From SAR324 cluster bacterium (GTDB taxonomy: Bacteria; SAR324; NAC60-12): DNA of 64,000 nt. Below, one piece after another: positions 32,320 through 54,426 of the stretch. Below the pieces are notes generated by a model, which was not told the origin of the DNA, searched no databases, and saw only the letters and a program-made list of their open reading frames with translations. The stretch spans positions 156,732-220,731 of the forward strand of contig JADFZZ010000003.1 in the NCBI GenBank assembly GCA_015232315.1. The letters run 5' to 3'. Both the position numbers and the translations under genes were made by a program. The stretch's first letter is position 1. Each line of letters begins with the position of its first letter.

Positions 32320-33222
32320 ATGCAATTTTCTAAATGTACTGTTTGTTATAAAACAATTGGCTGGACGGGGCTTGTCTCCAATATTTTTCTGTCAGGCTTG
32401 AAGTTGTTTGTCGGGATCGTCGCAGGCTCGCAGGCGCTGATTGCGGACGCGATGTATTCATTTAAAGATCTCATTTCGTCGGTTCTGATCATCATCGGAT
32501 TGAAAATTTCCTTAAAACCGGTTGATCTTGAGCACCCTTACGGGCATGGCAAGGTTGAATTTATCCTTACCTTGGTGGTCAGTGTGGTCTTTATCGGTTT
32601 GACGGGATTAATACTCCTGTTGACCATGGACCATTTTTTTCAGGGCTACCACAAACCACCTCACCTTATCGCGTTAGCTGTCGCTGTATTTTCCGTCGTC
32701 GCGAATCTGTTCCTGTTCAAATATACCAGATGTGTTTCGACTCAAATCAACAGTCCAATGGTCAAAACCTTATCCAAGCATCATGGTGCTGACGCCTTGT
32801 CATCCGTCGCTGTTTCGGCGGGTATCATCGGCGCGCATTACATGGGCCTGATCTGGATGGATTCGCTGGTAGCCGTCTTTGAAACGATCCATCTGTTATA
32901 TCTCGGTGTTGAGATATTCTGGGAATCGTTTAAAGGTTTGATGGATTATTCCGCTCCAGCCGATGTTTTGAGAAAAATTCAACAGACAGTATTGGACTTT
33001 GACGAGGTAAAGACGGTAGAAACCCTCAAAACAAGGCAAGTTGGACAAGGTATATGGATTGATATTGTGATTGGAGTGAATCCTGATTTGAGAGTGGATG
33101 AAGCCTATGATGTCGGGTGTCAGGTTGAAGCTGTGCTGTTTGAAACGATCGAGCATGTGGCCGCTGTGAATGTACGTTTTGGAGCTCATGATTCCAGAAA
33201 ACTCCTTACTCAAGGATTGTAA
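32320..33222 (+). CDS. mamM: MamM (CDF family)
   Basis: 300 aa. The N-terminus MQFSKCTVCYKTIGW, the TM2 site LIADAMYSFKD (Tyr/Asp) and TM5 HHGADALSS match what I recall of MamM. A C-terminal CDF domain is present. Confidence 0.85.
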   Translation: MQFSKCTVCYKTIGWTGLVSNIFLSGLKLFVGIVAGSQALIADAMYSFKDLISSVLIIIGLKISLKPVDLEHPYGHGKVEFILTLVVSVVFIGLTGLILLLTMDHFFQGYHKPPHLIALAVAVFSVVANLFLFKYTRCVSTQINSPMVKTLSKHHGADALSSVAVSAGIIGAHYMGLIWMDSLVAVFETIHLLYLGVEIFWESFKGLMDYSAPADVLRKIQQTVLDFDEVKTVETLKTRQVGQGIWIDIVIGVNPDLRVDEAYDVGCQVEAVLFETIEHVAAVNVRFGAHDSRKLLTQGL

Positions 33223-35400: not shown

Positions 35401-36063
35401 ATGGCAAATAAAAAGAAAATAGAGGTTGATGTTGATTTTTCAGATACCCTCAGTTTTTACCTGCATTCCGGATTGAAGACAGCGCAGAAAATTTCTGATG
35501 CGTCGATTGAGTGGTATCGGAACATTTTTTCTCTCGAAAATGAGGAAAAAACTGATTATTTTTATGCCAAAGGAATTGATCACGCAAAGAAAGGAAAATA
35601 CGCAAAGGCGATTCCCTTACTAAGCGCAGTCCATCAGGGCATGCCCCAGGATGCTGAGGTATTACACTATCTTGGACTATCCTATCTGAAAACAGGTGAA
35701 GAAGAGAAGGGACTCGCCTGTTTGGAAAAAGTGACAAAAATTGAAGGAACCCATACAAAAACAATGATCCTGCTTGGTTTGCTCTATAGCAAAAAGAAGG
35801 ACTATGAAAAAGCGGTCGCGGTTCTTGAAAATGCGGTTGCCTATGAAAAAAAGGATCCCGCGCTGTATTATCGCCTGGGGTTTGCGTATGATAATCTGAA
35901 AAAACATGACAAGGCCATTCAATGTTTTGAAAAAGCACTTGATCTGGATCCCGACAATGTCAATGTTTGCCAGGCTCTTGGACTTGCGCATGAGTCTCAG
36001 GGAAATCGGGACGAGGCCGTTGCGTATTTCAAGAAAGCCCTGGAAATGGAAGAGAAAGTGTGA
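35401..36063 (+). CDS. mamA: MamA (TPR protein)
   Basis: 220 aa. Consecutive TPR units (AEVLHYLGLSYLKTGEEEKGLACLEKV..., ALYYRLGFAYDNLKKHDKAIQCFEKAL..., NVCQALGLAHESQGNRDEAVAYFKKAL). It follows mamO, as in mamAB operons. Confidence 0.8.
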   Translation: MANKKKIEVDVDFSDTLSFYLHSGLKTAQKISDASIEWYRNIFSLENEEKTDYFYAKGIDHAKKGKYAKAIPLLSAVHQGMPQDAEVLHYLGLSYLKTGEEEKGLACLEKVTKIEGTHTKTMILLGLLYSKKKDYEKAVAVLENAVAYEKKDPALYYRLGFAYDNLKKHDKAIQCFEKALDLDPDNVNVCQALGLAHESQGNRDEAVAYFKKALEMEEKV

Positions 36064-36069
36064 GGCCCT

Positions 36070-36813
36070 ATGGGGGATGAAACCACAATTGACAGGGAAC
36101 AAGAGGAACGAATACGCCGCACAAGAGAACTGGCGGAGCGTTTGTTTCAGGATGAAATCAACCCCAAAAAAGCATCCCGCAAGAAAAAACAAGGTCCTAT
36201 CGTTTTAATTTATTTCATAGGATTTATTGTTTTTGCGATTTCAGTCTTATACCGTGTCAATATGTTCATTAGTTTGGAAGAAGAAGTTTTTGCCTCGGTG
36301 GGACAGATTGATGTCGCGTTGCAAAGACGAATGAATTTATTTGAGAATATTGTGAACACAACACTCAATCAAGGGATTCTGGAATATAAAATTGTTAAAA
36401 ATGTCGCGGATTCCCGTGCGGGTTTTGCTCAAAATTCTGAACTCAGTGGTGTGGTTGACAACCTGGAAAATCTGGAGGCTCTTAAATCCTCACTCGAGGG
36501 GGCTTCTTTTTCCAAACTGATTGCGCTGATGGAACAATATCCGGAAATAAAATTTTCAGACAACTATTCCCGGTTGATCAACAACCTGGTTGATCTGGAA
36601 GATCTCCTGCTTAGAAAACGAGATGCCCGAATTGAACAAATCCGCATTTACAATACCGCGATTACCACGTTTCCTTCAACGTTTCTCGCAAAAATAACAG
36701 GGTTTAAGCGCTATGAATATTTCGAAATGGAGCTACAGTCCCTCCATAACGTGCCAATGTTGAAACCAACTATGTTTAAGCGACTTTTACCTGAATCCAG
36801 GAAGAGCCCATGA
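36070..36813 (+). CDS. mamQ: MamQ (LemA family), copy 2
   Basis: 247 aa. LemA core (LQRRMNLFENIVN...YPEIKFSDNY...RIEQIRIYNTAITTFPSTF). Colinear with copy 1. Confidence 0.88.
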   Translation: MGDETTIDREQEERIRRTRELAERLFQDEINPKKASRKKKQGPIVLIYFIGFIVFAISVLYRVNMFISLEEEVFASVGQIDVALQRRMNLFENIVNTTLNQGILEYKIVKNVADSRAGFAQNSELSGVVDNLENLEALKSSLEGASFSKLIALMEQYPEIKFSDNYSRLINNLVDLEDLLLRKRDARIEQIRIYNTAITTFPSTFLAKITGFKRYEYFEMELQSLHNVPMLKPTMFKRLLPESRKSP

Positions 36814-37676
36814 GATTTGAAGCCTGTAAACAATGCCGAACTGAACAGGGGATCCACTCCTTTTTAGTCAATCTGTTCATGGCCCTTTTTAAAGGGGTGC
36901 TGGGTGTTTTAACCGGAAGCGCGGCGCTGGTCGCTGACGGGTTGCATTCTTCAGCCGATGTGATCGCCACCAGTGTGACCATGGTCAGCGTTTGGATATC
37001 CGGAAAACCGGCAAGTAAATCCTATGCGTATGGCTATGGAAATATTCAGTTTATTTCCGCGGCAATTGTTGGAATGATCCTGTTGTTAGGTGCGCTTTAC
37101 TTATTTGTAAACGCCACCATCAACATCGTCAGTGGTCTCATCGAAAGCCCCAATATGCTGGCCGTGATTGGCGCCATCGTTTCTATCACCATGAATCAGT
37201 TATTGTTCCATTATCAAAAGTGTGTCGGGCAGGAAAACAACAGTCCGGCAATCATGTCCAATGCCTGGGACAATCGTTCGGATGCGCTTTCCTCAGCGGC
37301 GGTGTTGTTTGGAATCATTGTGGCTGTTTTAGGTTTTCCGATCGCGGATCCCTTGGCGGCTATCGCTGTTTCACTCGTAATCGTCAAGATCGCTGTTGAA
37401 CTTCTTATCGATGCGGTCAATGGATTGATGGATCATTCACCAGATATCACTGAATTGCATGAAGTTTATCGTGTTGCTGAAAGCATTGAAGGGGTTCGTG
37501 GTATTTCATCCCTTAAAATGAGACGTCATGGTGAAATAACACTGGTTGATATTGGAATCAAAGTTCCCCCGGATATGAGAGTTTATGAAGGCGATTTAAT
37601 TGCTCTGGCGGTGAAGGTAAAAGTTTCCAAATCCATGGAGCATGAAACGGACGTTCAAGTTTTTGTAGGAGTTTGA
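36810..37676 (+). CDS. mamB: MamB (CDF family)
   Basis: 288 aa. The N-terminus MRFEACKQCRTEQ, TM2 LVADGLHSSAD (His/Asp) and TM5 WDNRSDALSS (Asp/Asp) match my recollection of MamB. ATGA overlap with the mamQ-2 stop. Confidence 0.88.
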   Translation: MRFEACKQCRTEQGIHSFLVNLFMALFKGVLGVLTGSAALVADGLHSSADVIATSVTMVSVWISGKPASKSYAYGYGNIQFISAAIVGMILLLGALYLFVNATINIVSGLIESPNMLAVIGAIVSITMNQLLFHYQKCVGQENNSPAIMSNAWDNRSDALSSAAVLFGIIVAVLGFPIADPLAAIAVSLVIVKIAVELLIDAVNGLMDHSPDITELHEVYRVAESIEGVRGISSLKMRRHGEITLVDIGIKVPPDMRVYEGDLIALAVKVKVSKSMEHETDVQVFVGV

Positions 37677-38679: not shown

Positions 38680-39531
38680 CTAAATGAAATGCGTTGACAG
38701 ACTCTCGATCGCATCAGAATCTTTCATGATATATTCAATCAACGATAACAGATAAACAATCTCCCTGCTCATCTCTTTCATCTCAGAATAATACCATTCC
38801 GCCTGCTGATCCTCGTTTTTCCTGAGAGCCTCCACCGTATTTTGGGCCACTTCATGAAAAAACACATGCAACTCATCCAGTTTTTTAATCTCTTGGATTG
38901 AATTGTAATGTTGTGCTTGGAGATTTTTAGTCCAAAACCCGAGATCGCACTCAGTTGCTGTTGCCAGCGATGTGTGTCGTCCTCGATTTTTGAAGGCGGA
39001 AGGCATATTTTCTGTCCATTGCACATGCTTCAATCGCACATGACTGACCTGAAGTGGACTACCAAGGTTCTGTTCCGGATCACGCTGAGTCTTGGTGTTC
39101 ATGAGATAATCCAGCAAAGAACTCAAGGGATGCGACATCTTTTCCTGGCGCTCCTGCATTTGCGTTGAGGCAAGTTCCAATTCTGTCAAAAGATAGATAA
39201 TCTCCCGACTTACTTCAGTCAGACTTTCCAGCTTCAGATTGATTTCCTCCGTGGTTTTATCCGTCCGGTTTGACATAAGTTCGGAAACTTTGTCATGAAA
39301 CTGAGTATGAACAGAATCCAGCCGTTGAACCGCGTCAAACTGATGAAACTTTTTCAATCCTGAAGCCTTCAACCATAAACCCAAATCGCATTCCATATGG
39401 TTATCGACAGGAGAAAGTGTCTCCTCATTTGTCAGTGCCTGTTTCAAATCAAACATCCATTTCAAATGCAGGATTCTGGCAATATTCACATCGAGAGTTT
39501 CACTATTTTTTCGCATAGACCGATTCTCCAT
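38680..39531 (-). CDS. Stand-alone protein with two tandem CZB (chemoreceptor zinc-binding) domains
   Basis: Two complete CZB signatures: HLKW...CDLGLW...HTQFH and HVQW...CDLGFW...HVFFH. Each is followed by a helical segment containing REI(I/V)YLL. Confidence 0.8.
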   Translation of the reverse strand: MENRSMRKNSETLDVNIARILHLKWMFDLKQALTNEETLSPVDNHMECDLGLWLKASGLKKFHQFDAVQRLDSVHTQFHDKVSELMSNRTDKTTEEINLKLESLTEVSREIIYLLTELELASTQMQERQEKMSHPLSSLLDYLMNTKTQRDPEQNLGSPLQVSHVRLKHVQWTENMPSAFKNRGRHTSLATATECDLGFWTKNLQAQHYNSIQEIKKLDELHVFFHEVAQNTVEALRKNEDQQAEWYYSEMKEMSREIVYLLSLIEYIMKDSDAIESLSTHFI

Positions 39532-39739: not shown

Positions 39740-41161
39740 ATGGGACTCTTGATGGAAAAACAACCGGTTCTATTAATCATAGATGATGAGCCAGACCTTT
39801 GGGAGACGATCAAAAACGCTCTCAAGCGGGAAGCCTATGAACTGGTATTTGCTCAAAATGGAAAGCAGGGTCTTGAGCTTTTTCATGAAAGAACTCCCAG
39901 CCTCATTCTATTGGATTTACGCATGCCGGGCATGAACGGCCTGGAGTTTCTGCAAACCATCAAACCAGAACCCTCTGATCCATATTTTGTTTATGTTTTG
40001 ACAGGACATGGAAACAATGAAGATGTTAAAGCTTGTTATGCGGCAGGAGCTCACGGGTTTTTACGTAAACCTTTCAACATCCATGAGCTTCGTGGAGTCT
40101 TGAAACGAAGCATTCAGCTCATTAAAAACAGGGAATTAAGTTCTAACAACAAAGATGCTTACGTCGATTTTATTGTAAACAGCTCCAACTGTCGTACACC
40201 GGAACAATTAACTGAAACCTTCTTCGAAGCTGTCAAACGCCTTTATTTTGAAAACTGGGGTTCACTCAACGTTTCAATCCTTACCAGGAATGAGGGGAGC
40301 GTTTTTGGACTTTCAGACCAAACCTCAGTTGTGAAAGATGGTGCCGCACTTGAGCGGACAGACTTAAATTCTGTCACGAACCTGAGTGCCTTGGAACAGA
40401 AAATATTAAAAAAAACATTGAATGAATATACGGTTGAAACCAAAGAAGGTCAGGCAAAGGATGCACCCACAGTCCATGCCGCCTGGGCAATTTTCTGGGA
40501 ACTGGAGGGGGATCCTGCTGATTCAAGTGGGCTGGCGGTCCTCATACGCAATTATCCATCGCTTGAATGTTCTGATGAAACTCAGTTGGCAACGAGGAAA
40601 AATATCAGGGAAGACATTGAGAATGCTGTGGCCAAGATGCTTGAACGGGTTTCTGAAGTTATGGAAAAACTCAACACCCAAAGAAAGCTGAAAGAAACCA
40701 ATGCTTTGCTGGAAAAACAAAAAACCGAACTTGAACATGAACGGGAAACAACTAAAAAGATTGTGCTTTTCTCTGTGCAGGAATTTCAGGTCATCTTTGA
40801 GGACAGCAATGACAATCAGGAAAAACAGATGGAACTTTGGGAAAACGCGCTCGCCTCTGTTAAAGAATCCTTCAATAAAGCCCTTGAGGCCACTGAAAAT
40901 ACGGTTAGAAGTCGAAATCAACAAATTTCAATGTGGAGGGATTCTGTGGATCAAGTGACCCGGTCCTTCACACAGGCAATGTCCTGTTTCACCGAATTGC
41001 AACCCGGCCAGCAGACCTTTCTGACGAATCTGAATAAACTGAAATCCCTTTACAGTGACACGGATTTGAATGAAAAACTAACACCCGGACAAATGAGTCA
41101 TACCGACGTGTCGGGCCAACAGGAAAACGTTGATGACCTGCTGGCCTCCTTAGGCTTGTGA
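39740..41161 (+). CDS. Response-regulator receiver protein with unknown central domain, coiled coil and CheZ-type C-terminal peptide
   Basis: 473 aa. REC with IIDDE, LLDLRMP, LTGHG, FLRKP. The C-terminus ...SGQQENVDDLLASLGL resembles the CheZ C-terminal CheY-binding peptide (...QDQVDDLLDSLGF). Confidence 0.8.
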   Translation: MGLLMEKQPVLLIIDDEPDLWETIKNALKREAYELVFAQNGKQGLELFHERTPSLILLDLRMPGMNGLEFLQTIKPEPSDPYFVYVLTGHGNNEDVKACYAAGAHGFLRKPFNIHELRGVLKRSIQLIKNRELSSNNKDAYVDFIVNSSNCRTPEQLTETFFEAVKRLYFENWGSLNVSILTRNEGSVFGLSDQTSVVKDGAALERTDLNSVTNLSALEQKILKKTLNEYTVETKEGQAKDAPTVHAAWAIFWELEGDPADSSGLAVLIRNYPSLECSDETQLATRKNIREDIENAVAKMLERVSEVMEKLNTQRKLKETNALLEKQKTELEHERETTKKIVLFSVQEFQVIFEDSNDNQEKQMELWENALASVKESFNKALEATENTVRSRNQQISMWRDSVDQVTRSFTQAMSCFTELQPGQQTFLTNLNKLKSLYSDTDLNEKLTPGQMSHTDVSGQQENVDDLLASLGL

Positions 41162-41425: not shown

Positions 41426-43693
41426 ATGAAAAAACTGCCACTCATTTTGATCATTGACGATGAAACCGATATTTGGGATGTGATTTCGCACGCCCTCAAA
41501 CGGGAGTCTGTTGAGTTGATCTTCGCGAAAAACGGGAAGGAAGGCCTGGAACTTTTTTATGAACGGAAGCCCCTTGTGGTGCTTCTTGATCTGCGCATGC
41601 CTGTCATGAACGGAATGCGCTTTCTGGAAACGCTCCAACCCAAACATTCAGACCCTTATTCTGTGCTGGTTTTAACCGGTCATGGGGACGATGAAGAAGT
41701 AAAAATCTGTTACCAATCGGGCGTTCATGGATTTCTGCGTAAACCAATCAATGTGTTTGAACTTCGTGGACTGCTCCTGCAGACGATTGAACTGAAACAG
41801 GCACAGGTTGATTTAAAAAATCAGTTTGAACAACTCCGGCAACTCCAGCTTGAGAAAGATCAGGAATCGCATCGGTTAGCCGATGAACAAGACATTTCCG
41901 GTTTTTTCAGCTCTGTGTTTTATCTGTTTGTTCTGGCCAACCTGGAAGAACGGTCGGTGGATGAAATTCTCGAATCCGCTGAAGACTTTTTAAAAAATGA
42001 GATGAAGCTCGATGTCGTATTGATGCTGGACTCCGAAAAATCTAACAGTGTTTTTCAGGAAGGAGAACAGGAGCTTTTGCTAAGGGCTGTCATTTCCGGA
42101 GAATCCATCACTCGTCTGGAACAGGCCTTCATCTGCTATGTCCCGCCGTTGGCTGTTCTGGTGAGAGATCAAGTCAATATTGATCAGGATAAAATTCAGA
42201 CTTTCGTTTCAGCGGCCGCGTCACGACTGCTCTTCGCCATTGCGGAAGAAAACAAACGTATCATGAACAGAATCCTGGAAGAGGCCATTTTCATGGTCAA
42301 TTCCAGGGGGAAAATCGAGCCGGGTTTCAGTGATGTGTGTTTATCCATGTTTCAAATCAAAGATCGGGAGCAGTTTATTGAAATGCTTCCCGGTGAATTG
42401 TTGTTCGGGAAAAACGCTAAAGCGGAACAATTCTTTGAATGGCTTCAGTTATGTTATAACAGTTTTCTGGATTTTGATGATTTGGTGGCTGTTCAACCCT
42501 CTGAACTTCTTACTGAAGAGGGCAGATGCTTAAGTTTGAAAATGAGTCCGGTCTATAATAATGATCGACAACTGCATTTCATTTTGTTCAAATTGACTGA
42601 CATCACTGAACAAAAACTTCAACGTGCCAAAGTCACGGAAGAGGAAGAACACAATGCGATGATCATCAAAGTCGCCTCCGATCAGGAAGGCTTTCTCCAG
42701 TTACTGGATGAGGTGGAGATGTTATTTCTGGAAATTTACGGGGAATTGAGCCTGCCTGAGGAGGAACTCAATATCCAGAAACTGTTTCGCTATTTTCACA
42801 CTCTCAAAGGCGGAACAGCCAGTTACGGCATGAAACGTGTCGCCGCCGCGTTCCATGAACTTGAAAATCAACTGACCCTCTTTCAGGATTCCTTTCAGTC
42901 TATTGATCTAATATTCATTTCCCAAATGCTCAACAACACCAACGAAGTTCAGGCGCTTTACAACCAGACCCTGGAATACCTCAACGCCTTTATCCCTCAG
43001 GCTCCCGGCAAATCCCGCGAAAAAAACTATAAGGTTTCTGAATTAAAAGTTAAAAAGGTTGAAGAGGCCGCCGCCAGAATTCTGCCGATTCCCCTGTTAC
43101 AACCGATACTGATCGAAGTGGATCGTTTGCGGATGGAACCGATTGGCTCACGCTTCAAAAGACTGGTCTTCATGGTGGAAGAACTTTCCACCCGTTTCAA
43201 TAAACTGGTGGAAGTCAAACTTGTCGGGACAGACCTCGAAGTTCATATAGAGCCCCTGAGATACTTTTTGGGAACCCTGGTCCATTTGATCCGGAATTGT
43301 GTGGATCATGGGATTGAAGAACCGGAAACGAGAATCCGCAACGGTAAACCCGAAACCGGCACAATCACCATTAAAACCTTTAAAGAAGGAAATCTCTTAA
43401 AAATTTCGATTGCGGATGATGGAAAAGGGATTGATGTCAGAACCCTTGCGAGAATCGCTCTGGAAAAAAAGTTGATGAACGAAGAAGCCCTCGAAGCCGC
43501 CACAGAACAGGACTTGCTACAACTCATTTTCGCAGCTGGTTTTTCTACAAAAGAGGAAATTTCGGATATTTCCGGACGTGGTGTGGGAATGGGCGCCATC
43601 AAGAGCGCTGTGGAGGCTCTGCGAGGGTCCATCAGCATCATCAGCACGTTGGGCGAAGGAACAACCTTCGAAATTGCTATCCCCCATTTTTAA
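41426..43693 (+). CDS. REC - GAF/PAS-like - HPt - CheA-type ATPase kinase lacking a CheW-like domain
   Basis: 755 aa. REC (IIDDE, LLDLRMP, LTGHG, FLRKP). HPt motif FHTLKGGTASYG. CheA P4-type boxes HLIRNCVDHGIE, DDGKGID, GRGVGM, GEGTTFEIAIP. The protein ends 3 aa later. Confidence 0.85.
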   Translation: MKKLPLILIIDDETDIWDVISHALKRESVELIFAKNGKEGLELFYERKPLVVLLDLRMPVMNGMRFLETLQPKHSDPYSVLVLTGHGDDEEVKICYQSGVHGFLRKPINVFELRGLLLQTIELKQAQVDLKNQFEQLRQLQLEKDQESHRLADEQDISGFFSSVFYLFVLANLEERSVDEILESAEDFLKNEMKLDVVLMLDSEKSNSVFQEGEQELLLRAVISGESITRLEQAFICYVPPLAVLVRDQVNIDQDKIQTFVSAAASRLLFAIAEENKRIMNRILEEAIFMVNSRGKIEPGFSDVCLSMFQIKDREQFIEMLPGELLFGKNAKAEQFFEWLQLCYNSFLDFDDLVAVQPSELLTEEGRCLSLKMSPVYNNDRQLHFILFKLTDITEQKLQRAKVTEEEEHNAMIIKVASDQEGFLQLLDEVEMLFLEIYGELSLPEEELNIQKLFRYFHTLKGGTASYGMKRVAAAFHELENQLTLFQDSFQSIDLIFISQMLNNTNEVQALYNQTLEYLNAFIPQAPGKSREKNYKVSELKVKKVEEAAARILPIPLLQPILIEVDRLRMEPIGSRFKRLVFMVEELSTRFNKLVEVKLVGTDLEVHIEPLRYFLGTLVHLIRNCVDHGIEEPETRIRNGKPETGTITIKTFKEGNLLKISIADDGKGIDVRTLARIALEKKLMNEEALEAATEQDLLQLIFAAGFSTKEEISDISGRGVGMGAIKSAVEALRGSISIISTLGEGTTFEIAIPHF

Positions 43694-43703
43694 TCAGGAA
43701 AAG

Positions 43704-46031
43704 ATGGAACATCTGGAAAAACTGAAAATTCTGGTACTCGATGATGAAACCGATCTCTGGGAAACCATTCAGGATGCTTTGAAACGGGAACCTTATGAAT
43801 TACACTTTGCCAAAAATGGCAGGGAAGGGTTAGAGCGTTTTTATGAAGTGAAACCCATCGCTGTCCTGCTTGACTTACGCATGCCCGTCATGGACGGTTT
43901 CGCCTTTCTGGACAAGCTTCGTCCAAACCGGGAAGATCCGTATTTTGTTCTTGTCCTCTCGGGTCATGGGGATGATGACGATGTGAAAGCCGCTTATCAG
44001 TTGGGCGCGCAGGGATTCCTTCGCAAGCCGTTCAATGTGTTTGAACTCCGGGGAATCCTCAAACAAAATATTGACTTAAAACAAACGCAAAACCATTCAA
44101 AACAGGAATTACAGCGTCTCTATCAGGAACAATTACAGGAAGCCGCCCGCCTGAAAGCCGAGCAGGAAATATCGGCCTTTTTCAGTTCGGTGTTCTATTT
44201 TGTGCTGGAAAATCTCGAGGAGAGGTCCCCTGAAGAAATATTGGCCTCCATTGAAAGTTTCCTGCGGGATGAAATGCGTCTGGATGTCGCGGTAATTCTG
44301 GATTCCCGACAACAACTGAACAGCTTCAATACCGTGGAAAAAGAACTACTGCTCAATGCGGAAGCGGAAGGAGAACTGATTTTTCGGGAAGGCGGTTATC
44401 TCATCTGCCTGATACGCCCCCTGTATGTCCTGATCAGAAATCCGCCGGATGATTTCGACCAGGACAAACTCCACACCTTTGTTTCTACCGCGGCGTCACG
44501 CCTGGGTTTCGCGATTGCCCAGGACAGCAAACGGATCATGCATGAGGTGTTTGAAGAAGCCGTACTCTTGATCAACAGTCTCGGAGAGATTGAACCCGGC
44601 TTCACTGATATTTGTTTGAAGTTGTTCCATATTGCCGATAAGGCCACGTTTCTGCAAACAACACCGGGAACCCTGATGTATGGAAACACCCCTGACGCGG
44701 AACACTTTCAGGAATGGATTCGCTTATGTTTTGAGGGGGCGCTGGATTTTTCGGACATGCGTGCGTTGCAACCGACAGAAATGAAATCCCCGGACCACAA
44801 AATTCTGGAGATAGAGATGATCCCTATCCGTGATAAGGATCAGAGTTTGAAATTTATATTGATAAAATTTAAAGACGTCACCGCCTTGCGTGAACAGCAG
44901 GTTGAACTTGAACACCAGCAACATGTGCAGTTAGCAACCCTGAAAGTCATCAAAAATCGATCAGCATTCCTGAATTATTATCGCCTGGTGATGGATAGTT
45001 TTTCCAGTCAGGACGCAATCTTATCGGTTCCGCATACTGATCTGATTCGTTCGTTACATACCGCAAAAGGGATGTCAGGTGTCTTTTACCTGAAAGGCAT
45101 CCAGCAAAAATGTCATGATGCCGAAACCCTGTTAAAACTTGAACCGACACTTTCACCGGGAAGTTCTGTGATCGAATTGATCCAATCCATTGCTGACTGG
45201 CTTCAGGATTTCATCAACAAAGAGGTTTTACACTGGGTTCTGGGGGAAGATGACCGGTCCTTCACCGTTGACAAAAACTGGTTTTTACATATCCAGCGTC
45301 AGTTTCAGGTTCAAACGGATTTCACGCAGAACAGGGTTCAGCATCTTCTGCGGCAAATCACCTTCATCCCGTTGATATCTCTGTTCAAGCATTTTGAAAC
45401 GGTTCTGCAGGATTTGGCAGTGGCTCGGGGTAAAAGTCTGTACCCTCTCATGATCAATGACGATTCCGGCATTTTTGTACCACCGAAGGTATTGGATAAC
45501 TTAATAAACTCCATGAGTCATCTCTTTCGCAATGCGGTCGATCATGGCATAGAAACCACTGAGACCAGGACCATGCTGGATAAAAATGAAATGGGTCGTA
45601 TTGATCTTCATTTAGAAAGTGATGCGACTCACCTGATCATCCGGGTTTCAGATGATGGACAAGGCATTGATCAAAACAAACTGTTGAAGCATGCCGTCTC
45701 AAAAAACCTGATTTCGGCTGAAAAAGCCACAACGCTGAACAACGATGAAATCCGGCATCTGGTTTTTTGGGATGGCCTATCCACAAAAGAAGAAGTTGAT
45801 CTGGTGAGCGGTCGAGGTGTCGGGATGAGTGATGTGAGAGCCTCATGCAGGGAACTTGGCGGCACCATTGATTATCAAACCGGGATTGGTAAAGGAACCA
45901 TCTGGACCATCGCTCTGCCCCTGGAACGTATTTATGGCGAACTGGTTCCGCCTGAATACTATGCGTTGAACATTGTTGAATCTGTCCCTGAAAAGTCGGG
46001 GGTTGGTCCTGTTTTCTGTCACAAATTGTAG
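43704..46031 (+). CDS. REC - GAF/PAS-like - HPt - CheA-type ATPase kinase (paralogue of 41426-43693)
   Basis: ATG 43704 follows AGGAAAAG. 775 aa. Same REC signatures, HPt LHTAKGMSGVF, ATPase boxes HLFRNAVDHGIE, DDGQGID, GRGVGM, GKGTIWTIALP. No P5-like domain. Confidence 0.85.
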   Translation: MEHLEKLKILVLDDETDLWETIQDALKREPYELHFAKNGREGLERFYEVKPIAVLLDLRMPVMDGFAFLDKLRPNREDPYFVLVLSGHGDDDDVKAAYQLGAQGFLRKPFNVFELRGILKQNIDLKQTQNHSKQELQRLYQEQLQEAARLKAEQEISAFFSSVFYFVLENLEERSPEEILASIESFLRDEMRLDVAVILDSRQQLNSFNTVEKELLLNAEAEGELIFREGGYLICLIRPLYVLIRNPPDDFDQDKLHTFVSTAASRLGFAIAQDSKRIMHEVFEEAVLLINSLGEIEPGFTDICLKLFHIADKATFLQTTPGTLMYGNTPDAEHFQEWIRLCFEGALDFSDMRALQPTEMKSPDHKILEIEMIPIRDKDQSLKFILIKFKDVTALREQQVELEHQQHVQLATLKVIKNRSAFLNYYRLVMDSFSSQDAILSVPHTDLIRSLHTAKGMSGVFYLKGIQQKCHDAETLLKLEPTLSPGSSVIELIQSIADWLQDFINKEVLHWVLGEDDRSFTVDKNWFLHIQRQFQVQTDFTQNRVQHLLRQITFIPLISLFKHFETVLQDLAVARGKSLYPLMINDDSGIFVPPKVLDNLINSMSHLFRNAVDHGIETTETRTMLDKNEMGRIDLHLESDATHLIIRVSDDGQGIDQNKLLKHAVSKNLISAEKATTLNNDEIRHLVFWDGLSTKEEVDLVSGRGVGMSDVRASCRELGGTIDYQTGIGKGTIWTIALPLERIYGELVPPEYYALNIVESVPEKSGVGPVFCHKL

Positions 46032-49819: not shown

Positions 49820-50185
49820 ATGTCCAAGAAAGCTTTGGTAATGGATGATTCACCGATTATCCGGAAAATGTTGACACATGGCCTGACCCGTTCGTTTGGC
49901 TTTGAGGTCATTGAAGCCGAAAATGGTCAGGATGGATTGACAAAGACCTCCCAACACGAGTTTGATTTGATTTTTTCCGATATCAATATGCCGGTCATGA
50001 CGGGGGTAGAATTTCTTGAAAAGTTCCGTAGCACCAACACCACAACCCCGGTGTTCATGCTTACCTCGGAAAAAGAAGATGTTTACAAACAAAAATGTCT
50101 GGATTTAGGAGCAACCGATTTTTTCAAAAAGCCGTTCAAACCAAATACCATCGAAGCCGCGTTGAAACAACTTCTGGAGGGGTGA
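49820..50185 (+). CDS. cheY: Single-domain response regulator, CheY-like
   Basis: 121 aa. VMDDS, FSDINMP (acceptor Asp), MLTSE (Thr), FFKKP (Lys). Confidence 0.85.
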   Translation: MSKKALVMDDSPIIRKMLTHGLTRSFGFEVIEAENGQDGLTKTSQHEFDLIFSDINMPVMTGVEFLEKFRSTNTTTPVFMLTSEKEDVYKQKCLDLGATDFFKKPFKPNTIEAALKQLLEG

Positions 50186-50577: not shown

Positions 50578-53500
50578 ATGGGTATAGTCATTGAACTGAG
50601 AGACTACAAAGACAATAGTGACAGTGGCGACTTGCCGTTAGGCAAAGACAGCTTTCAGGAAGTGACAACGGCCAGACAGTTGGTCGCGTTTGTCAAAAAG
50701 ACTGAAGGCAGTTGCGCTCTGACGATCAATTTGCCCAAAGTTGAATTGGCTAAAGCCATTCCCCAATTGGTTGAGTTACTGCACAAAAGCAATCCGGCAA
50801 TCCAGAAGCATGTGCTGGAAATCCTTGGCAATATGGGAATGCCGGAAGTCGTTCCCCACATCATTCCTTATTGTTTTCAACCAGACCCCTATCTCAAAGC
50901 CCAGGCAGTCAAGTCGCTCGAACTGTTGGGGCAACCGTCGGCGATCCTGCCCTTGAAAGATTTGCTCAATGATAAAAATCAACGCATTCAGAAAATTGTC
51001 AGGAATGCCTTGAGTAAACTCATCAGCAATGAATTTTTGTTGACGATGGTCAGCAACGAAGAAGAAAAATCAGGAATTTCTACAGAAGAAACATTCTTTG
51101 AGCTGATTTCTATCTTCAATGAAGAAGAATTCCATAATTTGTCTCCCGGCACAATGAAGTCAATTATTGAATTCTTCCGTAAAAATCATGAGAAAGCCCG
51201 ACGAACCGAAGAAAAACTCCTGCAAAAGCAATGGGAAGCCGATGCGGTAACGCAAAAATTATTTGAACTGCAACAGCAGTTGAAACAGAAATACTCTGAA
51301 TCCAGACTGGAACTCGATCTTTTCAGGAAAAGTATTTTGTCCCACACCGAAGAGCGGCATCTCTTACCGGGGGTGATCGACACTCAAAGTCATGAGTTGG
51401 AGCAGTTACATACACGTTTTGATGATCTTACCCGTGAAAACGCTGACGCCAAACTTGAGATTTCAAAGTTGCTGGCCACGCTTGAAGAGCAAAGGTCACA
51501 ACACAGGGCATCCCTGGCAACCCGGGAAACAGAAGCCGAGGCGGATGAAATCGGGTTGGAGCAAGCCTTAACCGCATCTCTCGAAGAAAATGAAACAGAA
51601 AATGAGGATGACGAACTAGAGCTGGAAGAGTCTTTAGGCGCTCTTGATTCAGCCTCCGACAACGAATTGACAGCGGAACATTTTGATCCGGGCATTGTAA
51701 TCTTTAATGAAGAAATCCTGGACGATCTGCTACTCAATGATCAAGCCCTTGAGTCCAGTGCACCGGCCAAACGGATGTTGTCTGAAAAAATTGTGATGGT
51801 CGAGCAAAATCATGATGCGTCAGACTACCTCAAAAGTTTGTTGAGATATGCCGGCTTTTCCAACATTGTGGTGTTTCATGATGGCCGACTTGCTTATGAA
51901 ACAATCCGTCAATCCCATGATACCATCAGCCTGATTCTGACGGCACGGTCTATTCCGCAAATGAACGGTCTGGAACTGTTAACCAAAGTGCGATCGTTTG
52001 AACAGGAAGACGGCTTGAAACCCTGTCCGGTGTTGATGATCACTGAAGATCTCAACACCTACAAAGTCAATGAACTCCACAAAGCCGGAGCAGCCGAAGT
52101 ATTTCCAAGGTTATTTATTCCTGAAAACTTCGTTGACAGGGTTATTCACCATTCTGGCGCCGAAAAGGCCTTGAGTGCTTCGAATCTGACCCTGGAGGCG
52201 GCCAAAGAAGAACTGCTCAATCTTGCTAAAACCTGTCAAGTCCAGTTTTGTAAAACCACTAAAAAACGCATCACCCTGTCTGTCAAATTCCCTCAGGATC
52301 TTCGTGCCGCGCCAACACGCATTCCCGGATTTCAGGAGATTTTTAAAACACTCATCGAATTCAGCATCGTTTCCGCGGTAAACCGCTCAACAGTCACTCT
52401 GCATTTCAAATCAACGGACTCATCCCGCGATTCAGTATTCCAGTTGAACGCCAGTTTTATTCCAGACAAAGGGAACACTTTTCTTTCTCTGGAAAATCAA
52501 TTCAATGATTTAGAGGACGTTGCCTCTGGAGAATTGAAAGAAGTTCAGAACACGGATACCCTGGGACAAAAATTCATCCAGATCACACTGGCGTTCTCAC
52601 AGCAGGGAATGATTCAATCCACTAAAGATGGACGTCACTCCAGTGAAGACTTCGATGATGAAGAAGTCTTTGATTTACTGGACGATCTGGAAGAAGACGG
52701 AAGCGATATCCAGAAAATTGTCTCCTCCCTGCATAAACTTTGTGAGGAAGAACCGTTCCGGTTGTTTTCAGTATTGGACTATCTCCATGATGGCCATTTC
52801 GAACAGGCTCACCGGGAAATTTTAGAAATGTTGCAGAAGTTGGACAGGGTCGATATCATCCCCTATTTAATCCGGCGTTTTCCTCAACTGCACAAGGAAT
52901 ACAAGCTGTGGACACTGTCCTTCATTGCTGAAAAAGATCTCAAAGCAGGACTGTACTTTATCATCAGTGTTCTCCGGGACGAGGATGAAGAAGTTCGGCA
53001 TCGGGTTCTGTCGGTTCTGCTCAAGCATTTTGACGCGTCTTTTCTGCACCTGTTGATGCATTCTTTTGTCCGTACCTTCCACCTGCCACGGACGATCAAA
53101 CAGACCGATATCCTCAGACGCCTTCCGCCAAAGGAACGCTCGGCGTTTTTTCAGGTTCTGTTGTACAATGAATCCTTTGAACTATCGGTTCCGTTCCTGT
53201 TCGGCTATCTGGACGCGGCGGCGCCCTATGAACAAGAATCGATTTACACTGCGTTGGCGGCCCAGGAATCGCTGGCGTATCTGGCTGAAGAACAGACAGA
53301 AATTCTCAAAAACCATTTTGAACAACAGCACGTTCTGCGACGTTTGCCTCGAATCACCTTGAGTTTGTTGCTGTCCACCAAGGCCGATCTGCTGAAATGG
53401 TTGATGAAACAGATCAAGCCCGCTCATTGGGTCGAAGTCTTCAAAGCAAGATTTGTGAAAGACATCAAATCAGGCTGGGAAGCCATGGGCATGTTTGTTC

Positions 53501-54426
53501 AGGAGGGAATGCAGGAAATACTCGATCATATCGTCCAGGCCGATGAATTGCTGGAAGCTGAGACTCTGGCAGAAGATCAGGAAAAAGAGATTTATCGAAT
53601 GCTTCACATGAGTAAAGGCATTGCCTTGAGTCTGGACCTGGAAATATTGGTCGCACTCTATCATTATGTGGAAGATCTGTGGTCCCATACCTTGAACAGG
53701 GACGACATGGATTTGGCAGAGTTGGACACTTTTAAAAAGCACTATAAATGCTTGCTCGATGTGACAAAAGCCGCTTCACGGATCTTGCGTCTGGCTGAAC
53801 ATGACGACTCCTTCCTGCGTGAAAAAATCGCGCTCAACAGTGTTTTCCCGAGAATGCAGCACCTCTTCAATAAATTGACAACGATGCTGAGAAAAAAAGC
53901 AACGTTGACCCTGCTCGAAGAAAAAGAGTTTTACCTGAACCCGAATTTGCTGAATTCCTTGAATGAGATGCTTATTCAATTATTAAAAAACAGTGTGGAC
54001 CATGGTGTGGAACTGAGTGAAGCCCGTCTTCGGGCCGGGAAATCTGAGGTTGGTGAAATTCAGTTGAGAATTGGTGAAAACAACGGGAACCTTCAGATCA
54101 TTGTTTCTGATGATGGCCAGGGACTTCAAATTGAGAGAATCGCAAAAAAATGTATTGAGAAAAATTTGTTGACTGAAGCTCAGGCAACGGCTCTTCTGAC
54201 AGACCCTGCCAGACACCATGAACTGTATGAGTTTATTTTTGCGTCTCAATTCAGCACAGCTCAAACCACCTCTGAGGTTTCCGGACGAGGCGTTGGTATG
54301 GATATCATCAAATCAGAATTGAATGACATGGGTGGAACGATCGCTATCGAATCAAAAGCCGGAATCGGCAGTTCCTTCATTCTTCAAATCCCCTTGCAGG
54401 AAAATCAAATCGTAACTGAAGCCTGA
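50578..54426 (+). CDS. HEAT-repeat / pseudo-receiver / HPt / CheA-type ATPase giant kinase
   Basis: 1282 aa: N-terminal HEAT/PBS-lyase-type repeats, a coiled coil, an acidic tract, and a REC-like fold without an acceptor Asp (LILTARSIPQMNG). More HEAT-like repeats follow, then HPt LHMSKGIALS and ATPase boxes LLKNSVDHGVE, DDGQGLQ, GRGVGM, GIGSSFILQIP. No P5 domain. Confidence 0.8.
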   Translation: MGIVIELRDYKDNSDSGDLPLGKDSFQEVTTARQLVAFVKKTEGSCALTINLPKVELAKAIPQLVELLHKSNPAIQKHVLEILGNMGMPEVVPHIIPYCFQPDPYLKAQAVKSLELLGQPSAILPLKDLLNDKNQRIQKIVRNALSKLISNEFLLTMVSNEEEKSGISTEETFFELISIFNEEEFHNLSPGTMKSIIEFFRKNHEKARRTEEKLLQKQWEADAVTQKLFELQQQLKQKYSESRLELDLFRKSILSHTEERHLLPGVIDTQSHELEQLHTRFDDLTRENADAKLEISKLLATLEEQRSQHRASLATRETEAEADEIGLEQALTASLEENETENEDDELELEESLGALDSASDNELTAEHFDPGIVIFNEEILDDLLLNDQALESSAPAKRMLSEKIVMVEQNHDASDYLKSLLRYAGFSNIVVFHDGRLAYETIRQSHDTISLILTARSIPQMNGLELLTKVRSFEQEDGLKPCPVLMITEDLNTYKVNELHKAGAAEVFPRLFIPENFVDRVIHHSGAEKALSASNLTLEAAKEELLNLAKTCQVQFCKTTKKRITLSVKFPQDLRAAPTRIPGFQEIFKTLIEFSIVSAVNRSTVTLHFKSTDSSRDSVFQLNASFIPDKGNTFLSLENQFNDLEDVASGELKEVQNTDTLGQKFIQITLAFSQQGMIQSTKDGRHSSEDFDDEEVFDLLDDLEEDGSDIQKIVSSLHKLCEEEPFRLFSVLDYLHDGHFEQAHREILEMLQKLDRVDIIPYLIRRFPQLHKEYKLWTLSFIAEKDLKAGLYFIISVLRDEDEEVRHRVLSVLLKHFDASFLHLLMHSFVRTFHLPRTIKQTDILRRLPPKERSAFFQVLLYNESFELSVPFLFGYLDAAAPYEQESIYTALAAQESLAYLAEEQTEILKNHFEQQHVLRRLPRITLSLLLSTKADLLKWLMKQIKPAHWVEVFKARFVKDIKSGWEAMGMFVQEGMQEILDHIVQADELLEAETLAEDQEKEIYRMLHMSKGIALSLDLEILVALYHYVEDLWSHTLNRDDMDLAELDTFKKHYKCLLDVTKAASRILRLAEHDDSFLREKIALNSVFPRMQHLFNKLTTMLRKKATLTLLEEKEFYLNPNLLNSLNEMLIQLLKNSVDHGVELSEARLRAGKSEVGEIQLRIGENNGNLQIIVSDDGQGLQIERIAKKCIEKNLLTEAQATALLTDPARHHELYEFIFASQFSTAQTTSEVSGRGVGMDIIKSELNDMGGTIAIESKAGIGSSFILQIPLQENQIVTEA

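What the first reader, a model, noticed from the sequence alone, without database searches (positions are those of the whole stretch)
41081..41161. CheZ-type C-terminal CheY-docking peptide on a REC protein
The 473-aa REC protein ends ...TPGQMSHTDVSGQQENVDDLLASLGL. The C-terminus of E. coli CheZ, which tethers CheZ to CheY-P, reads ...ASQDQVDDLLDSLGF. The match (V-D-D-L-L-x-S-L-G-hydrophobic at the very C-terminus, preceded by Q-rich acidic residues) is striking. A stand-alone CheY is encoded 8.7 kb downstream. I could not find the CheZ catalytic D/Q motif (QDFQDLTGQ); the nearest string is VQEFQVIFED. The protein may therefore dock CheY without being a classical phosphatase, or it may act through its own receiver as a phosphate sink.
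Basis: partly seen in the sequence, partly recalled or inferred. Interest (0 to 1): 0.65.

Follow-up and report, generated by a model that had tools for sequence, protein, structure and literature searches.

The report
CheZ-type CheY-docking tail, non-CheZ protein
A response-regulator protein next to a magnetosome gene cluster ends in the same flexible linker and short docking helix that the chemotaxis phosphatase CheZ uses to hold phosphorylated CheY, but the rest of the protein belongs to a small undescribed family that joins this tail to a sensor domain and a helical hairpin, so it may be a signal-controlled CheY phosphatase or CheY binder.

Summary
ORF 39740-41161 (473 aa; REC, an α/β middle domain, then a long helical region) ends in ...QQENVDDLLASLGL*. 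This tail cannot be told apart from real CheZ tails, for example Ralstonia ...NQEQVDDLLASLGF. The last 49 residues are 45% identical to the C-terminus of a real CheZ (E=7e-7). A profile-profile comparison of tail against tail gives P=9e-12. The similarity stops at the linker and tail. With the tail removed, the Pfam CheZ model no longer matches, and a core-against-core hhalign comparison (P=0.44) scores no better than reversed-sequence controls. No DxxxQ motif is conserved. The protein belongs to a rare, unannotated family of about 25 proteins with either a REC or a PAS domain at the N-terminus. All members carry a predicted helical hairpin, a disordered linker and an almost invariant [VI]DDLL[AD]S[LM]G[LIMF]* tail. 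Conserved, predicted-exposed residues are E348, E368 and Q421/Q425 (QxxxQ). One member lies in a cheW-cheB-cheR-X-Hpt-REC operon. In two SAR324 lineages, including this window, the gene lies beside REC-Hpt-CheA-type kinases. Best reading: the tail tethers a CheY-like protein in its phosphorylated form. The hairpin is then either a sensor-regulated phosphatase analogous to CheZ or a non-catalytic binder. It is not a CheZ family member. Binding and catalysis were not tested.

The parts
39740..41161 (+). Whole gene: 473-aa REC / middle domain / helical hairpin / linker / CheZ-type tail protein. A public gene call uses the ATG at 39752 and gives 469 aa.
   Evidence: ORF list. Identical protein P0001 in the database. 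Orthologues P0002 (57% identity), P0003 and P0004.
39773..40099 (+). Receiver (REC) domain, residues 12-120. It has the canonical D15/D16, D59, T89 and K110. It is 63% and 50% identical to the REC domains of the two kinases immediately downstream.
   Evidence: Pfam PF00072 E=1.3e-28. Key residues. Paralogy.
40148..40564 (+). Uncharacterised α/β middle domain, about residues 137-275, with the conserved motif GLAVLIRNYPS. It may be shared with the adjacent kinases.
   Evidence: Secondary structure from a low-confidence AF2 model. No Pfam or NCBIfam hit. Weak hhalign match to the kinases' middle regions, P=0.0016 against 0.59 for the reversed control.
40577..40888 (+). First long helix of the hairpin, residues about 280-383. 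It carries the conserved stretch KKIVxFSxxEF (E348 at 90% or more). It also carries NQEKQMELWENA, with M364 and E368 invariant and E361 and Q363 at 90% or more.
   Evidence: AF2 on an 18-sequence alignment, pLDDT 76.8, helix 301-383. Conservation. Translation.
40904..41056 (+). Second helix of the hairpin, residues 389-439.
   Evidence: AF2 helix 389-439 after a turn at 384-388.
41000..41020 (+). Invariant QxxxQxF motif (Q421, Q425, F427; here QPGQQTF, and DQITDQKF in most members). The two Gln residues fall at predicted exposed e and b heptad positions. This is the candidate CheY-facing or catalytic patch.
   Evidence: Translation. Invariance in 22 sequences down to 22% body identity. Heptad assignment.
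41057..41116 (+). Disordered linker, residues 440-459. It contains the semi-conserved motif (N/K)LxPGQ at residues 446-451. In CheZ the corresponding place holds the conserved LNGPQ.
   Evidence: pLDDT below 50 for residues 441-461. hhalign pairs NEnL-PGqM with CheZ nqsllngpqv. The Gly-Pro of the CheZ linker is strictly conserved and functionally critical (bioRxiv 10.1101/607010).
41117..41161 (+). CheZ-type C-terminal helix with stop codon: GQQENVDDLLASLGL*, residues 460-473.
   Evidence: Predicted helix 460-470. Top-residue frequency 0.87 against 0.53 for the body. Matches real CheZ tails.
41426..46031 (+). Two tandem REC / middle region / Hpt / CheA-type ATPase kinases (755 aa at 41426-43693 and 776 aa from the ATG at 43701 to 46031). 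No CheW/P5 domain was detected. These are likely sources of phosphoryl groups for the local CheY-like protein.
   Evidence: Pfam Response_reg, Hpt and HATPase_c. NCBIfam best matches are CheA models over the P4 region (E=3e-52 and 2e-40). The same pair of kinases lies next to family member P0004 in another SAR324 MAG.
49820..50185 (+). Stand-alone CheY-like receiver, 121 aa. It is a candidate partner of the tail, but this is not established.
   Evidence: Pfam E=2.1e-29. 35% identical to E. coli CheY, with canonical D/D/D/T/K but K at the positions of I95 and V108.
50578..54426 (+). HEAT-repeat / REC / CheA-type ATPase protein, 1282 aa, part of the same conserved kinase set.
   Evidence: Pfam. 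NCBIfam CheA P4 region E=4e-36. Two proteins with the same architecture are in L023.

Best explanation
The 473-aa protein belongs to an undescribed family of sensor-coupled proteins. Each member has an N-terminal input domain: a receiver plus an α/β domain in this protein, and a PAS domain in others. The input domain is joined through a long helix to a helical hairpin, which probably pairs in a dimer to form a four-helix bundle. The hairpin is followed by a disordered linker of about 20 residues and a 10-14-residue amphipathic helix of the CheZ C-terminal type.

Proposed mechanism:
- The tail docks on the α4-β5-α5 face of a phosphorylated CheY-like response regulator and holds it next to the bundle. 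This step is inferred from sequence.
- The bundle surface carrying the invariant exposed residues (Q421/Q425, with E348 predicted to lie opposite them, and E368) then acts on CheY-P. The most likely action is to accelerate its dephosphorylation with an amide/acid pair, as CheZ (D143/Q147), CheX (E/N) and HisKA-type phosphatases do. This step is a hypothesis.
- The state of the input domain tunes this activity through the connecting helix. This step is a hypothesis.

In this window the receiver is a close paralogue of the receivers on the two adjacent CheA-type kinases. One upstream signal could therefore control kinase and phosphatase reciprocally, in a CheA/CheY/'CheZ-like' circuit beside the magnetosome genes.
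For: Tail:
- The sequence is confirmed.
- All 22 family members end in [VI]DDLL[AD]S[LM]G[LIMF]*.
- The tail is 78% identical where the bodies are 22% identical.
- Real CheZ tails fetched from E. coli, Ralstonia, Cupriavidus, Pantoea, Photobacterium, Aeromonas and Pseudomonas read Q..VDDLL[ADS]SLG[FI].
- hhalign tail against tail gives P=8.8e-12.
- BLASTP against a real CheZ gives 45% identity over 49 residues, E=7e-7.
- The Pfam CheZ model hits only the tail region.
- CheZ (1kmi_Z) is the second-best PDB sequence hit of the family profile (E=0.054).

Architecture: AF2 (pLDDT 76.8) predicts helix 301-383, a turn, helix 389-439, a disordered stretch 440-459 and helix 460-470. This layout of hairpin, linker and C-terminal helix is the one described for CheZ (PMC7750401).

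Conserved residues: E348, E361, Q363, M364, E368, Q421 and Q425 are at 90-100%. The Gln pair sits at i and i+4 in predicted e and b positions.

Genomic context:
- P0008 lies in cheW-cheB-cheR-[X]-Hpt-REC.
- P0004 (SAR324) lies beside two REC-Hpt-HATPase kinases and two HEAT-REC-HATPase kinases, as in this window.
- P0002 lies beside an MCP and a STAS protein.
- P0007 lies among hybrid kinases with an MCP nearby.

Modular input: REC-type and PAS-type members share the hairpin and tail.
Against: - No binding or enzymatic data exist, and no complex model could be made.
- The hairpin body shows no detectable homology to CheZ. hhalign core against core gives P=0.44, and reversed controls give 0.15-0.17. 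Pfam CheZ disappears when 22 C-terminal residues are removed. Foldseek finds only generic hairpins at E of 0.17 or more.
- The CheZ DxxxQ motif is absent. No phosphatase is known to me that uses QxxxQ.
- The family alignment is shallow (22 sequences), and the dimeric bundle is an inference.
- The PAS-type members lie next to cytochrome b561, YceI and RsmJ genes, not che genes.
- The local CheY has K at the I95 and V108 positions.
Confidence: 0.45

Rival explanations
1. Non-catalytic CheY-P binder. The tail captures CheY-P, and the hairpin sequesters it, localises it (for example to another coiled-coil partner or a cell pole), or competes with FliM or CheZ for it. The sensor domain controls this. 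No phosphatase chemistry is involved.
For: Only the tail and linker are CheZ-like. No known phosphatase motif (DxxxQ, ExxN) is conserved. The PAS-type members occur in Pseudomonadales-like MAGs. From general knowledge, that group normally has its own CheZ, so these proteins could act as competitors. I did not check these genomes for cheZ. A 959-aa coiled-coil protein lies in the local cluster.
Against: Invariant exposed Gln and Glu residues on the hairpin point to a specific functional surface beyond the tail. The linker keeps a conserved Pro-Gly motif where CheZ has the Gly-Pro it needs for function. This fits productive positioning of CheY on the bundle.
Confidence: 0.27
2. A true but extremely diverged CheZ. 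The whole C-terminal module descends from CheZ, has gained N-terminal sensor domains and has changed its catalytic motif. The candidate equivalent is QITDQ / QPGQQ in place of DLTGQ.
For: The layout is the same: hairpin, linker, C-terminal helix (PMC7750401). Linker and tail look homologous. The CheZ bundle is known to vary between lineages, while the active site and C-terminus are the conserved parts (PMC7750401). The QxxxQ motif lies in the second hairpin helix, 39 residues before the tail. An hhalign run against E. coli CheZ alone gave 69% probability over the N-terminal helix.
Against: Core against core hhalign with a 13-sequence CheZ profile gives probability 0.1%, no better than reversed controls. 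Pfam CheZ scores 14.6 bits against a cut-off of 30.7, and nothing at all without the tail. The AxxFQ-DxxxQ signature is absent, and the Asp is replaced.
Confidence: 0.13
3. The first reader's phosphate-sink idea or an autoregulatory variant. Either the tail brings CheY-P close so that phosphoryl groups drain into the protein's own receiver, or the tail folds back onto its own receiver or the paralogous kinase receivers.
For: The window protein's REC has all the phospho-acceptor residues. It is 63% and 50% identical to the receivers of the neighbouring kinases.
Against: The hairpin and tail are kept in members that have a PAS domain instead of REC, and in members with pseudo-receivers lacking D57 and K109 (P0012 and the L010 protein). 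The receiver therefore cannot be the conserved partner or sink. I know of no precedent for direct REC-to-REC transfer (my own knowledge).
Confidence: 0.08
4. The C-terminal motif has nothing to do with CheY. It is a degron or a generic hydrophobic C-terminal tag, and the resemblance to CheZ is convergent or accidental.
For: Function was never tested. The family tails end in L, I or M, whereas CheZ tails usually end in F.
Against: Identity covers 11 of 13 tail residues with the Ralstonia CheZ, and the match extends into the linker. A real CheZ also ends in I (Pantoea plasmid). The motif is found only in CheZ and this family in the loci examined. One member lies in a che operon.
Confidence: 0.05

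Closest known systems
CheZ (Pfam PF04344), the CheY-P phosphatase of Beta-, Gamma- and Epsilonproteobacteria and some Alphaproteobacteria
   Same: The C-terminal helix is Q..VDDLL.SLG followed by a hydrophobic residue at the very C-terminus. A disordered linker with a conserved Pro/Gly motif precedes it. A long helical hairpin of similar size comes before that (about 139 residues here, against 134 in E. coli CheZ). One family member occupies a position in a che operon of the kind where a cheZ gene can lie.
   Different: No detectable sequence homology in the hairpin. No AxxFQ-DxxxQ active-site motif; the invariant residues are QxxxQ, E348 and E368 instead. The N-terminus carries sensor domains (REC plus α/β, or PAS), which I do not know from classical CheZ. 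The linker is shorter, with 39 residues from Q425 to the tail against 58 from Q147 in E. coli. The tail ends in L, I or M rather than F.
DHp (HisKA / HisKA_3) four-helix bundles of histidine kinases acting as phosphatases (E/DxxT/N and DxxxQ motifs; my own knowledge)
   Same: A sensor domain leads through a signalling coiled coil into a helical hairpin expected to dimerise. In the PAS-type members the coiled coil reads ITxRKxxExEIxxLNENLExRVxERTAELE. Conserved acid and amide residues lie on the bundle.
   Different: No phospho-accepting His, no catalytic ATPase domain, and no Pfam HisKA hit even at E up to 10. The response regulator would be recruited by a tethering peptide rather than by the bundle alone.
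FliM N-terminal CheY-binding peptide, and CheC/CheX/FliY phosphatases
   Same: Short peptides that tether CheY-P by its α4-β5-α5 face. The phosphatases use an acid/amide pair (my own knowledge).
   Different: The motifs are unrelated in sequence (LSQxEIDALL; ExxN), and CheC/CheX have an α/β fold. No Pfam match to these families.
ChePep of Epsilonproteobacteria (a receiver-domain protein that partners with CheZ; mentioned in PMC7750401)
   Same: It is a chemotaxis accessory protein with an N-terminal REC domain and a long non-globular region.
   Different: ChePep is not known to me to carry a CheZ tail. No sequence was available for comparison, so this was not tested.

Membership tests
CheZ (PF04344) | Score above the Pfam gathering threshold, that is, overall sequence homology | tested here: not met
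   14.6 bits (E=0.031) against a cut-off of 30.7, and only for residues matching profile positions 182-202. Other members give E of 0.004-0.46. No hit at E up to 10 after removing the last 22 residues. hhalign core against core gives probability 0.1%, P=0.44.
CheZ (PF04344) | Catalytic DxxxQ (E. coli D143/Q147) with the adjacent AxxFQ on the second hairpin helix | tested here: not met
   VQEFQVIFED lies in the first helix, and its D and Q positions vary among orthologues (V/K and D/Q/G). The only invariant i, i+4 pair in the second helix is Q421/Q425. Motif definition from PMC7750401.
CheZ (PF04344) | C-terminal amphipathic CheY-P-binding helix (E. coli residues about 200-214) at the very C-terminus | tested here: met
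   At the sequence level only: hhalign tail against tail gives probability 97.5%, P=8.8e-12. 45% identity over 49 residues to a real CheZ, E=7e-7. Predicted helix 460-470. Binding was not tested.
CheZ (PF04344) | Disordered linker between the bundle and the C-helix, with a conserved Gly-Pro | tested here: inconclusive
   The disordered linker 440-459 is predicted. The motif is (N/K)LxPGQ, with Pro-Gly rather than Gly-Pro, present in about 75% of members. hhalign pairs it with LLNGPQ. Significance of the CheZ Gly-Pro: 10.1101/607010.
CheZ (PF04344) | Helical hairpin that dimerises into a long four-helix bundle | tested here: inconclusive
   AF2 monomer model: helices 301-383 and 389-439 with a turn between them, pLDDT 76.8. 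Dimerisation was not modelled. Foldseek gives only generic hairpins, and CheZ is not in the top 50.
Response regulator receiver (PF00072) | Receiver fold with D12/D13, D57, T87 and K109 | tested here: met
   Pfam E=1.3e-28. The window protein has D, D, D, T and K at these positions.
CheC/CheX/FliY phosphatases | α/β CheC fold with D/S-x3-E-x2-N-x22-P motifs | tested here: not met
   No Pfam hit to CheC-type families at E up to 10. The C-terminal module is all-helical.
HisKA-type DHp domain | Phospho-accepting His with an E/DxxT/N motif, and a Pfam HisKA match | tested here: not met
   No HisKA hit at E up to 10 in ten tail-less modules. No invariant His.

The most novel reading that the evidence does not exclude
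This is the founding example of a new class of signal-regulated response-regulator phosphatases. A four-helix bundle unrelated to CheZ uses an exposed Gln pair (QxxxQ) with a facing Glu, and it has acquired or retained the CheZ linker and docking helix to tether CheY-P. Its activity is gated directly by a receiver or PAS input. In magnetotactic SAR324 bacteria it forms the 'off' arm of a push-pull circuit with P5-less, receiver-gated CheA-type kinases encoded beside the magnetosome genes. That circuit would be a dedicated signalling pathway for magnetotaxis.
Probability: 0.25. Interest if true: 0.8.

Novelty: new variant of a known kind. Interest (0 to 1): 0.6.

Why it matters
CheZ is the textbook example of a phosphatase that finds its substrate with a tethering peptide. 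As far as I know, and from four literature searches on CheZ-related terms that turned up no such report, that peptide has been described only on CheZ itself. Finding the same linker and tail on a different helical scaffold, fused directly to sensor domains, has three consequences.
- It gives a sequence signature, the terminal VDDLLxSLGx*, for finding CheY-interacting proteins outside the CheZ family.
- It suggests that CheY-P removal or capture can be controlled directly by a second signal (phosphorylation or a PAS ligand), which classical CheZ, as I know it, lacks.
- It marks the cluster at 39.7-58 kb as a chemotaxis-like circuit physically linked to magnetosome genes in SAR324. How magnetotactic bacteria outside the Alphaproteobacteria couple sensing to swimming is, to my knowledge, poorly understood.

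The tests are straightforward: peptide binding and CheY-P decay assays.

Tried and rejected
- PDB sequence search with the 44 C-terminal residues found nothing at E up to 10 because the query is too short. The full-length search returned only receiver domains.
- AF2 on the full-length protein with a 3-sequence alignment gave pLDDT 51, which is unusable beyond secondary structure.
- Foldseek of the module model against the PDB gave no match better than E=0.17, all generic hairpins (LSD1 tower, STAT). It is uninformative about CheZ.
- The third large protein search, with E. coli CheZ as query, returned only enterobacterial CheZ proteins of 79% identity or more. That was useless for a diverse profile. 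I obtained diverse CheZ sequences from tblastn on plasmid and chromid records instead.
One of these is a real CheZ. No full taxonomic census is therefore available.
- The promoter and terminator scan around the gene found nothing above shuffle expectation.
- I tried to judge the partner CheY from groove residues (I95, Y106, V108, K119, K122). The result was inconclusive for both the window CheY and the L021 CheY.
- The idea that VQEFQVIFED is a degenerate CheZ active site is rejected. It lies in the wrong helix, and its D and Q positions are not conserved.
- The idea that the module is a degenerate HisKA domain has no profile support.
- An hhalign run against E. coli CheZ alone gave 69% probability on an N-terminal helix. 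This was not reproduced with a 13-sequence CheZ profile, so I treat it as noise.
Full report
**1. The observation**

window:41081-41161 (+) translates to TPGQMSHTDVSGQQENVDDLLASLGL*. This is the C-terminus of the 473-aa ORF 39740-41161. Pfam finds one domain in it, a receiver at residues 12-120 (E=1.3e-28).

**2. Is the resemblance to CheZ real?**

I fetched E. coli cheZ from NC_000913. I also fetched six diverse annotated or Pfam-consistent CheZ genes from plasmid and chromid records. Their C-termini are:
- E. coli: ...SQDQVDDLLDSLGF
- Ralstonia: ...NQEQVDDLLASLGF
- Cupriavidus: ...DQSQVDDLLASLGF
- a Pantoea plasmid copy: ...TQDDVDDLLASLGI
- Photobacterium, Aeromonas and P. aeruginosa: ...GQDDVDDLLSSLGF

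The window protein (...GQQENVDDLLASLGL) falls inside this range of variation. The supporting comparisons are:
- BLASTP against E. coli CheZ aligns only the last 21 residues (E=0.008).
- BLASTP against a real gammaproteobacterial CheZ aligns the last 49 residues at 45% identity, E=7e-7. That CheZ scores 236 bits on Pfam CheZ and lies downstream of flhA, flhF, a ParA/MinD-family ATPase gene and a sigma-70-family (fliA-like) gene. The match includes PGQ.S.DV..GQ..VDDLLASLG.
- hhalign of the family's linker and tail against that of 13 CheZ proteins gives probability 97.5% and P=8.8e-12.
- A relaxed motif occurs once in the six-frame translation of the window. In 258 kb of other loci it occurs only in CheZ proteins and this family, always one residue before the stop.

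**3. What the protein is**

A search of 5.8 billion proteins with the non-receiver part found only two relatives, both annotated as plain 'response regulator' (SAR324 MAG, 57% identity; 'Deltaproteobacteria bacterium TL4', 43%). All three keep the tail.

An exhaustive HMMER search of 1.84 billion representatives with the C-terminal 188 residues found 11 proteins. A profile search added 13 more. Together they define a rare family with two architectures:
- (a) REC, an α/β middle domain, and the helical module. Members are the window protein, P0002-4, P0007, P0008, P0012 and the L010 protein.
- (b) PAS, a signalling-helix coiled coil, and the helical module, about 290 aa. Members are P0006, P0011 and P0013-24. 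The loci L008, L009 and L011 come from Oleiphilaceae, Moraxellaceae and Ketobacteraceae MAGs.

All 22 full-length members examined end in [VI]DDLL[AD]S[LM]G[LIMF]*. The tail (residues 461-473) has a mean top-residue frequency of 0.87, against 0.53 for the body and 0.39 for the linker. Between the window protein and non-SAR324 members the body is 22% identical and the tail 78%. Neither Pfam nor NCBIfam has a model for the helical module.

**4. Anatomy of the module**

AF2 with an 18-sequence alignment (pLDDT 76.8) predicts, in window-protein numbering, helix 301-383, a turn at 384-388, helix 389-439, a disordered stretch 440-459 (pLDDT below 50) and a terminal helix 460-470. This is a helical hairpin, a flexible linker and a short C-terminal helix. 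The same layout is described for CheZ: hairpin 35-168 forming a four-helix bundle in the dimer, linker 169-199 and C-helix 199-214 (PMC7750401).

Columns at 90% identity or more are E325, L331, V342, E348, E361, Q363, M364, E368, Q421, Q425, L434, L447, Q461 and V464-G472. Q421 and Q425 (QPGQQTF here, DQITDQKF in most members) are an i, i+4 pair at predicted e and b heptad positions. E348 and E368 fall at predicted c and b positions, although the register of the first helix is weak. From the hairpin geometry (turn at about residue 386), E348 should lie roughly opposite Q421-Q425.

The linker carries (N/K)LxPGQ 11-15 residues before the tail. hhalign pairs this with the CheZ LLNGPQ. The Gly-Pro of the CheZ linker is strictly conserved, and G188E and P189L are loss-of-function mutations (bioRxiv 10.1101/607010).

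**5. Is it a CheZ?**

No, by every test I could run.
- Pfam CheZ scores 14.6 bits against a cut-off of 30.7, and only over profile positions 182-202. Other members give E of 0.004-0.46.
- When the last 22 residues are removed from ten members, CheZ no longer appears even at E up to 10.
- hhalign of the family core against a 13-sequence CheZ core gives probability 0.1% and P=0.44, no better than reversed-sequence controls (0.15 and 0.17).
- Foldseek finds only generic hairpins (best E=0.17), and CheZ is not among the top 50.
- The CheZ signature AxxFQ-DxxxQ (PMC7750401) is absent.

A very remote common origin of the whole module cannot be excluded. CheZ bundles are known to be variable. The family profile's second-best PDB hit is 1kmi_Z at E=0.054. 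But the evidence supports homology only for the last 25-50 residues.

**6. Context**

The gene lies directly downstream of a magnetosome gene cluster. Its components are:
- MamK-like actins at 15709-17265 and 30865-32067
- Trypsin-PDZ-magnetochrome proteins at 18559-20091 and 25941-28679
- a PDZ-magnetochrome protein at 20363-21118
- LemA proteins at 21217-21987 and 36070-36813
- cation-efflux (CDF) transporters at 32320-33222 and 36810-37676
- a Trypsin-TauE protein at 33225-35072
- a TPR protein at 35401-36063

SAR324 MAGs with magnetosome clusters are known (PMC7602337).

Downstream of the gene lie:
- two REC-x-Hpt-HATPase proteins whose ATPase domains match CheA models best (E=3e-52 and 2e-40) and which lack a CheW/P5 domain
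- a 959-aa coiled-coil protein
- the 121-aa CheY-like protein
- a HEAT-REC-CheA-type ATPase protein
- a HEAT-repeat protein
- a REC-HisKA-HATPase protein

The receiver of the 473-aa protein is 63% and 50% identical to those of the two kinases. Their middle regions may also be related (hhalign P=0.0016 against 0.59 for the reversed control, which is weak).

Elsewhere:
- P0004 (SAR324) lies after two REC-Hpt-HATPase kinases and two HEAT-REC-HATPase kinases and before a STAS protein, with feoAB nearby. The kinase set is thus conserved in two lineages.
- P0008 lies in cheW-cheB-cheR-[P0008]-Hpt-REC.
- P0002 lies next to a STAS protein and an MCP.
- P0007 lies among hybrid kinases with an MCP nearby.
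- The PAS-type genes lie after cytochrome b561 and YceI genes and before rsmJ, with no che genes in view.
- P0003 has no informative neighbours.

**7. Mechanism**

What is shown: the sequence identity of the tail with CheZ tails, its strong conservation, the predicted hairpin-linker-helix layout, the conserved polar residues, and the association with chemosensory or CheA-type clusters in several members.

What is inferred: that the tail binds CheY-P on its α4-β5-α5 face as the CheZ peptide does, and that the hairpin dimerises into a bundle.

What is hypothesised: that the bundle surface with Q421, Q425, E348 and E368 catalyses dephosphorylation, using an amide/acid pair as in CheZ, CheX, Rap and HisKA phosphatases (my own knowledge), and that the sensor domain gates it.

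The main rival is a non-catalytic binder or competitor.

PAS-type members lack a receiver. P0012 and the L010 protein have pseudo-receivers, with S, H, E, L/V and P at the D12, D13, D57, T87 and K109 positions.

The local CheY is canonical at the phosphorylation site, but it has K at the positions of I95 and V108. It is therefore a candidate partner, not an established one.

**8. Novelty and verdict**

The tail is a known kind of element. The protein family that carries it, its fusion to sensor domains, and its link to P5-less CheA-type kinases beside a magnetosome cluster appear undescribed. Four of the six literature searches I ran were on CheZ-related terms, and they found nothing comparable. 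I rate it a new variant of a known kind, with interest 0.6. Confidence that the tail is a CheY-docking element is about 0.7. Confidence in the full tether-plus-regulated-phosphatase model is about 0.45.

Noticed in passing
window 15709-37676, also 58471-59640: A magnetosome gene cluster. It contains two MamK-like actins, Trypsin-PDZ-magnetochrome (MamE-like) proteins, a PDZ-magnetochrome (MamP-like) protein, two LemA (MamQ-like) proteins, a Trypsin-TauE (MamO-like) protein, a TPR (MamA-like) protein and two CDF transporters (MamB/M-like). A further CDF protein fused to a Nitro_FeMo-Co domain lies at 58471-59640. The closest homologues of the studied protein come from SAR324 MAGs, so the window is probably from a magnetotactic SAR324 bacterium.
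   Followed up: partly
window 41426-46031 and 50578-54426; L023 1-9612: These kinases have an N-terminal receiver (or HEAT repeats plus a receiver), an Hpt domain and a CheA-type (P4) ATPase domain, but no CheW-like P5 domain. The same set of four lies next to family member P0004 in another SAR324 MAG. They look like receiver-gated, receptor-independent CheA relatives. They may form a signalling unit associated with the magnetosome island.
   Followed up: partly
window 46629-49508: A 959-aa protein with a long central coiled coil (weak SMC/Rad50-like matches only) lies between the kinases and the CheY-like gene. Its role is unknown. It could be a scaffold.
   Followed up: no
window 38680-39531 (- strand): A 283-aa protein with two chemoreceptor zinc-binding (CZB) domains and no MCP signalling domain is transcribed divergently from the studied gene.
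   Followed up: no
L004-L007 (for example L005 7612-10736), and L001 8019-8603: In gammaproteobacterial MAGs the PAS-type family members sit in a conserved order: cytochrome b561, YceI, the PAS-tail protein, then RsmJ on the opposite strand. A YceI gene also lies about 1.4 kb upstream of the SAR324 orthologue P0002. This may be coincidence, or a hint of a redox or quinone-related input.
   Followed up: no
L023 9614-9988 and 11458-11796; L024 971-1345 and 2815-3153; L001 11421-11726: Small STAS-domain proteins lie immediately next to the SAR324 orthologues P0004 and P0002, and a DUF7793 protein lies just upstream of P0004. No STAS gene was seen next to the window's copy.
   Followed up: no
database hits P0026, P0027, P0030, P0032, P0041, P0058: Several public gene calls of 297-347 aa combine Pfam CheZ and Response_reg in E. 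coli-like sequences. They are almost certainly cheY-cheZ read-through or mis-called genes, not natural REC-CheZ fusions.
   Followed up: no
L015 310-930 (Pantoea soli plasmid): An annotated CheZ on a Pantoea plasmid ends in ...VDDLLASLGI, with I instead of the usual F. It also lacks the conserved Gly-Pro of the linker. So real CheZ tails already span the terminal-residue variation seen in the new family.
   Followed up: no
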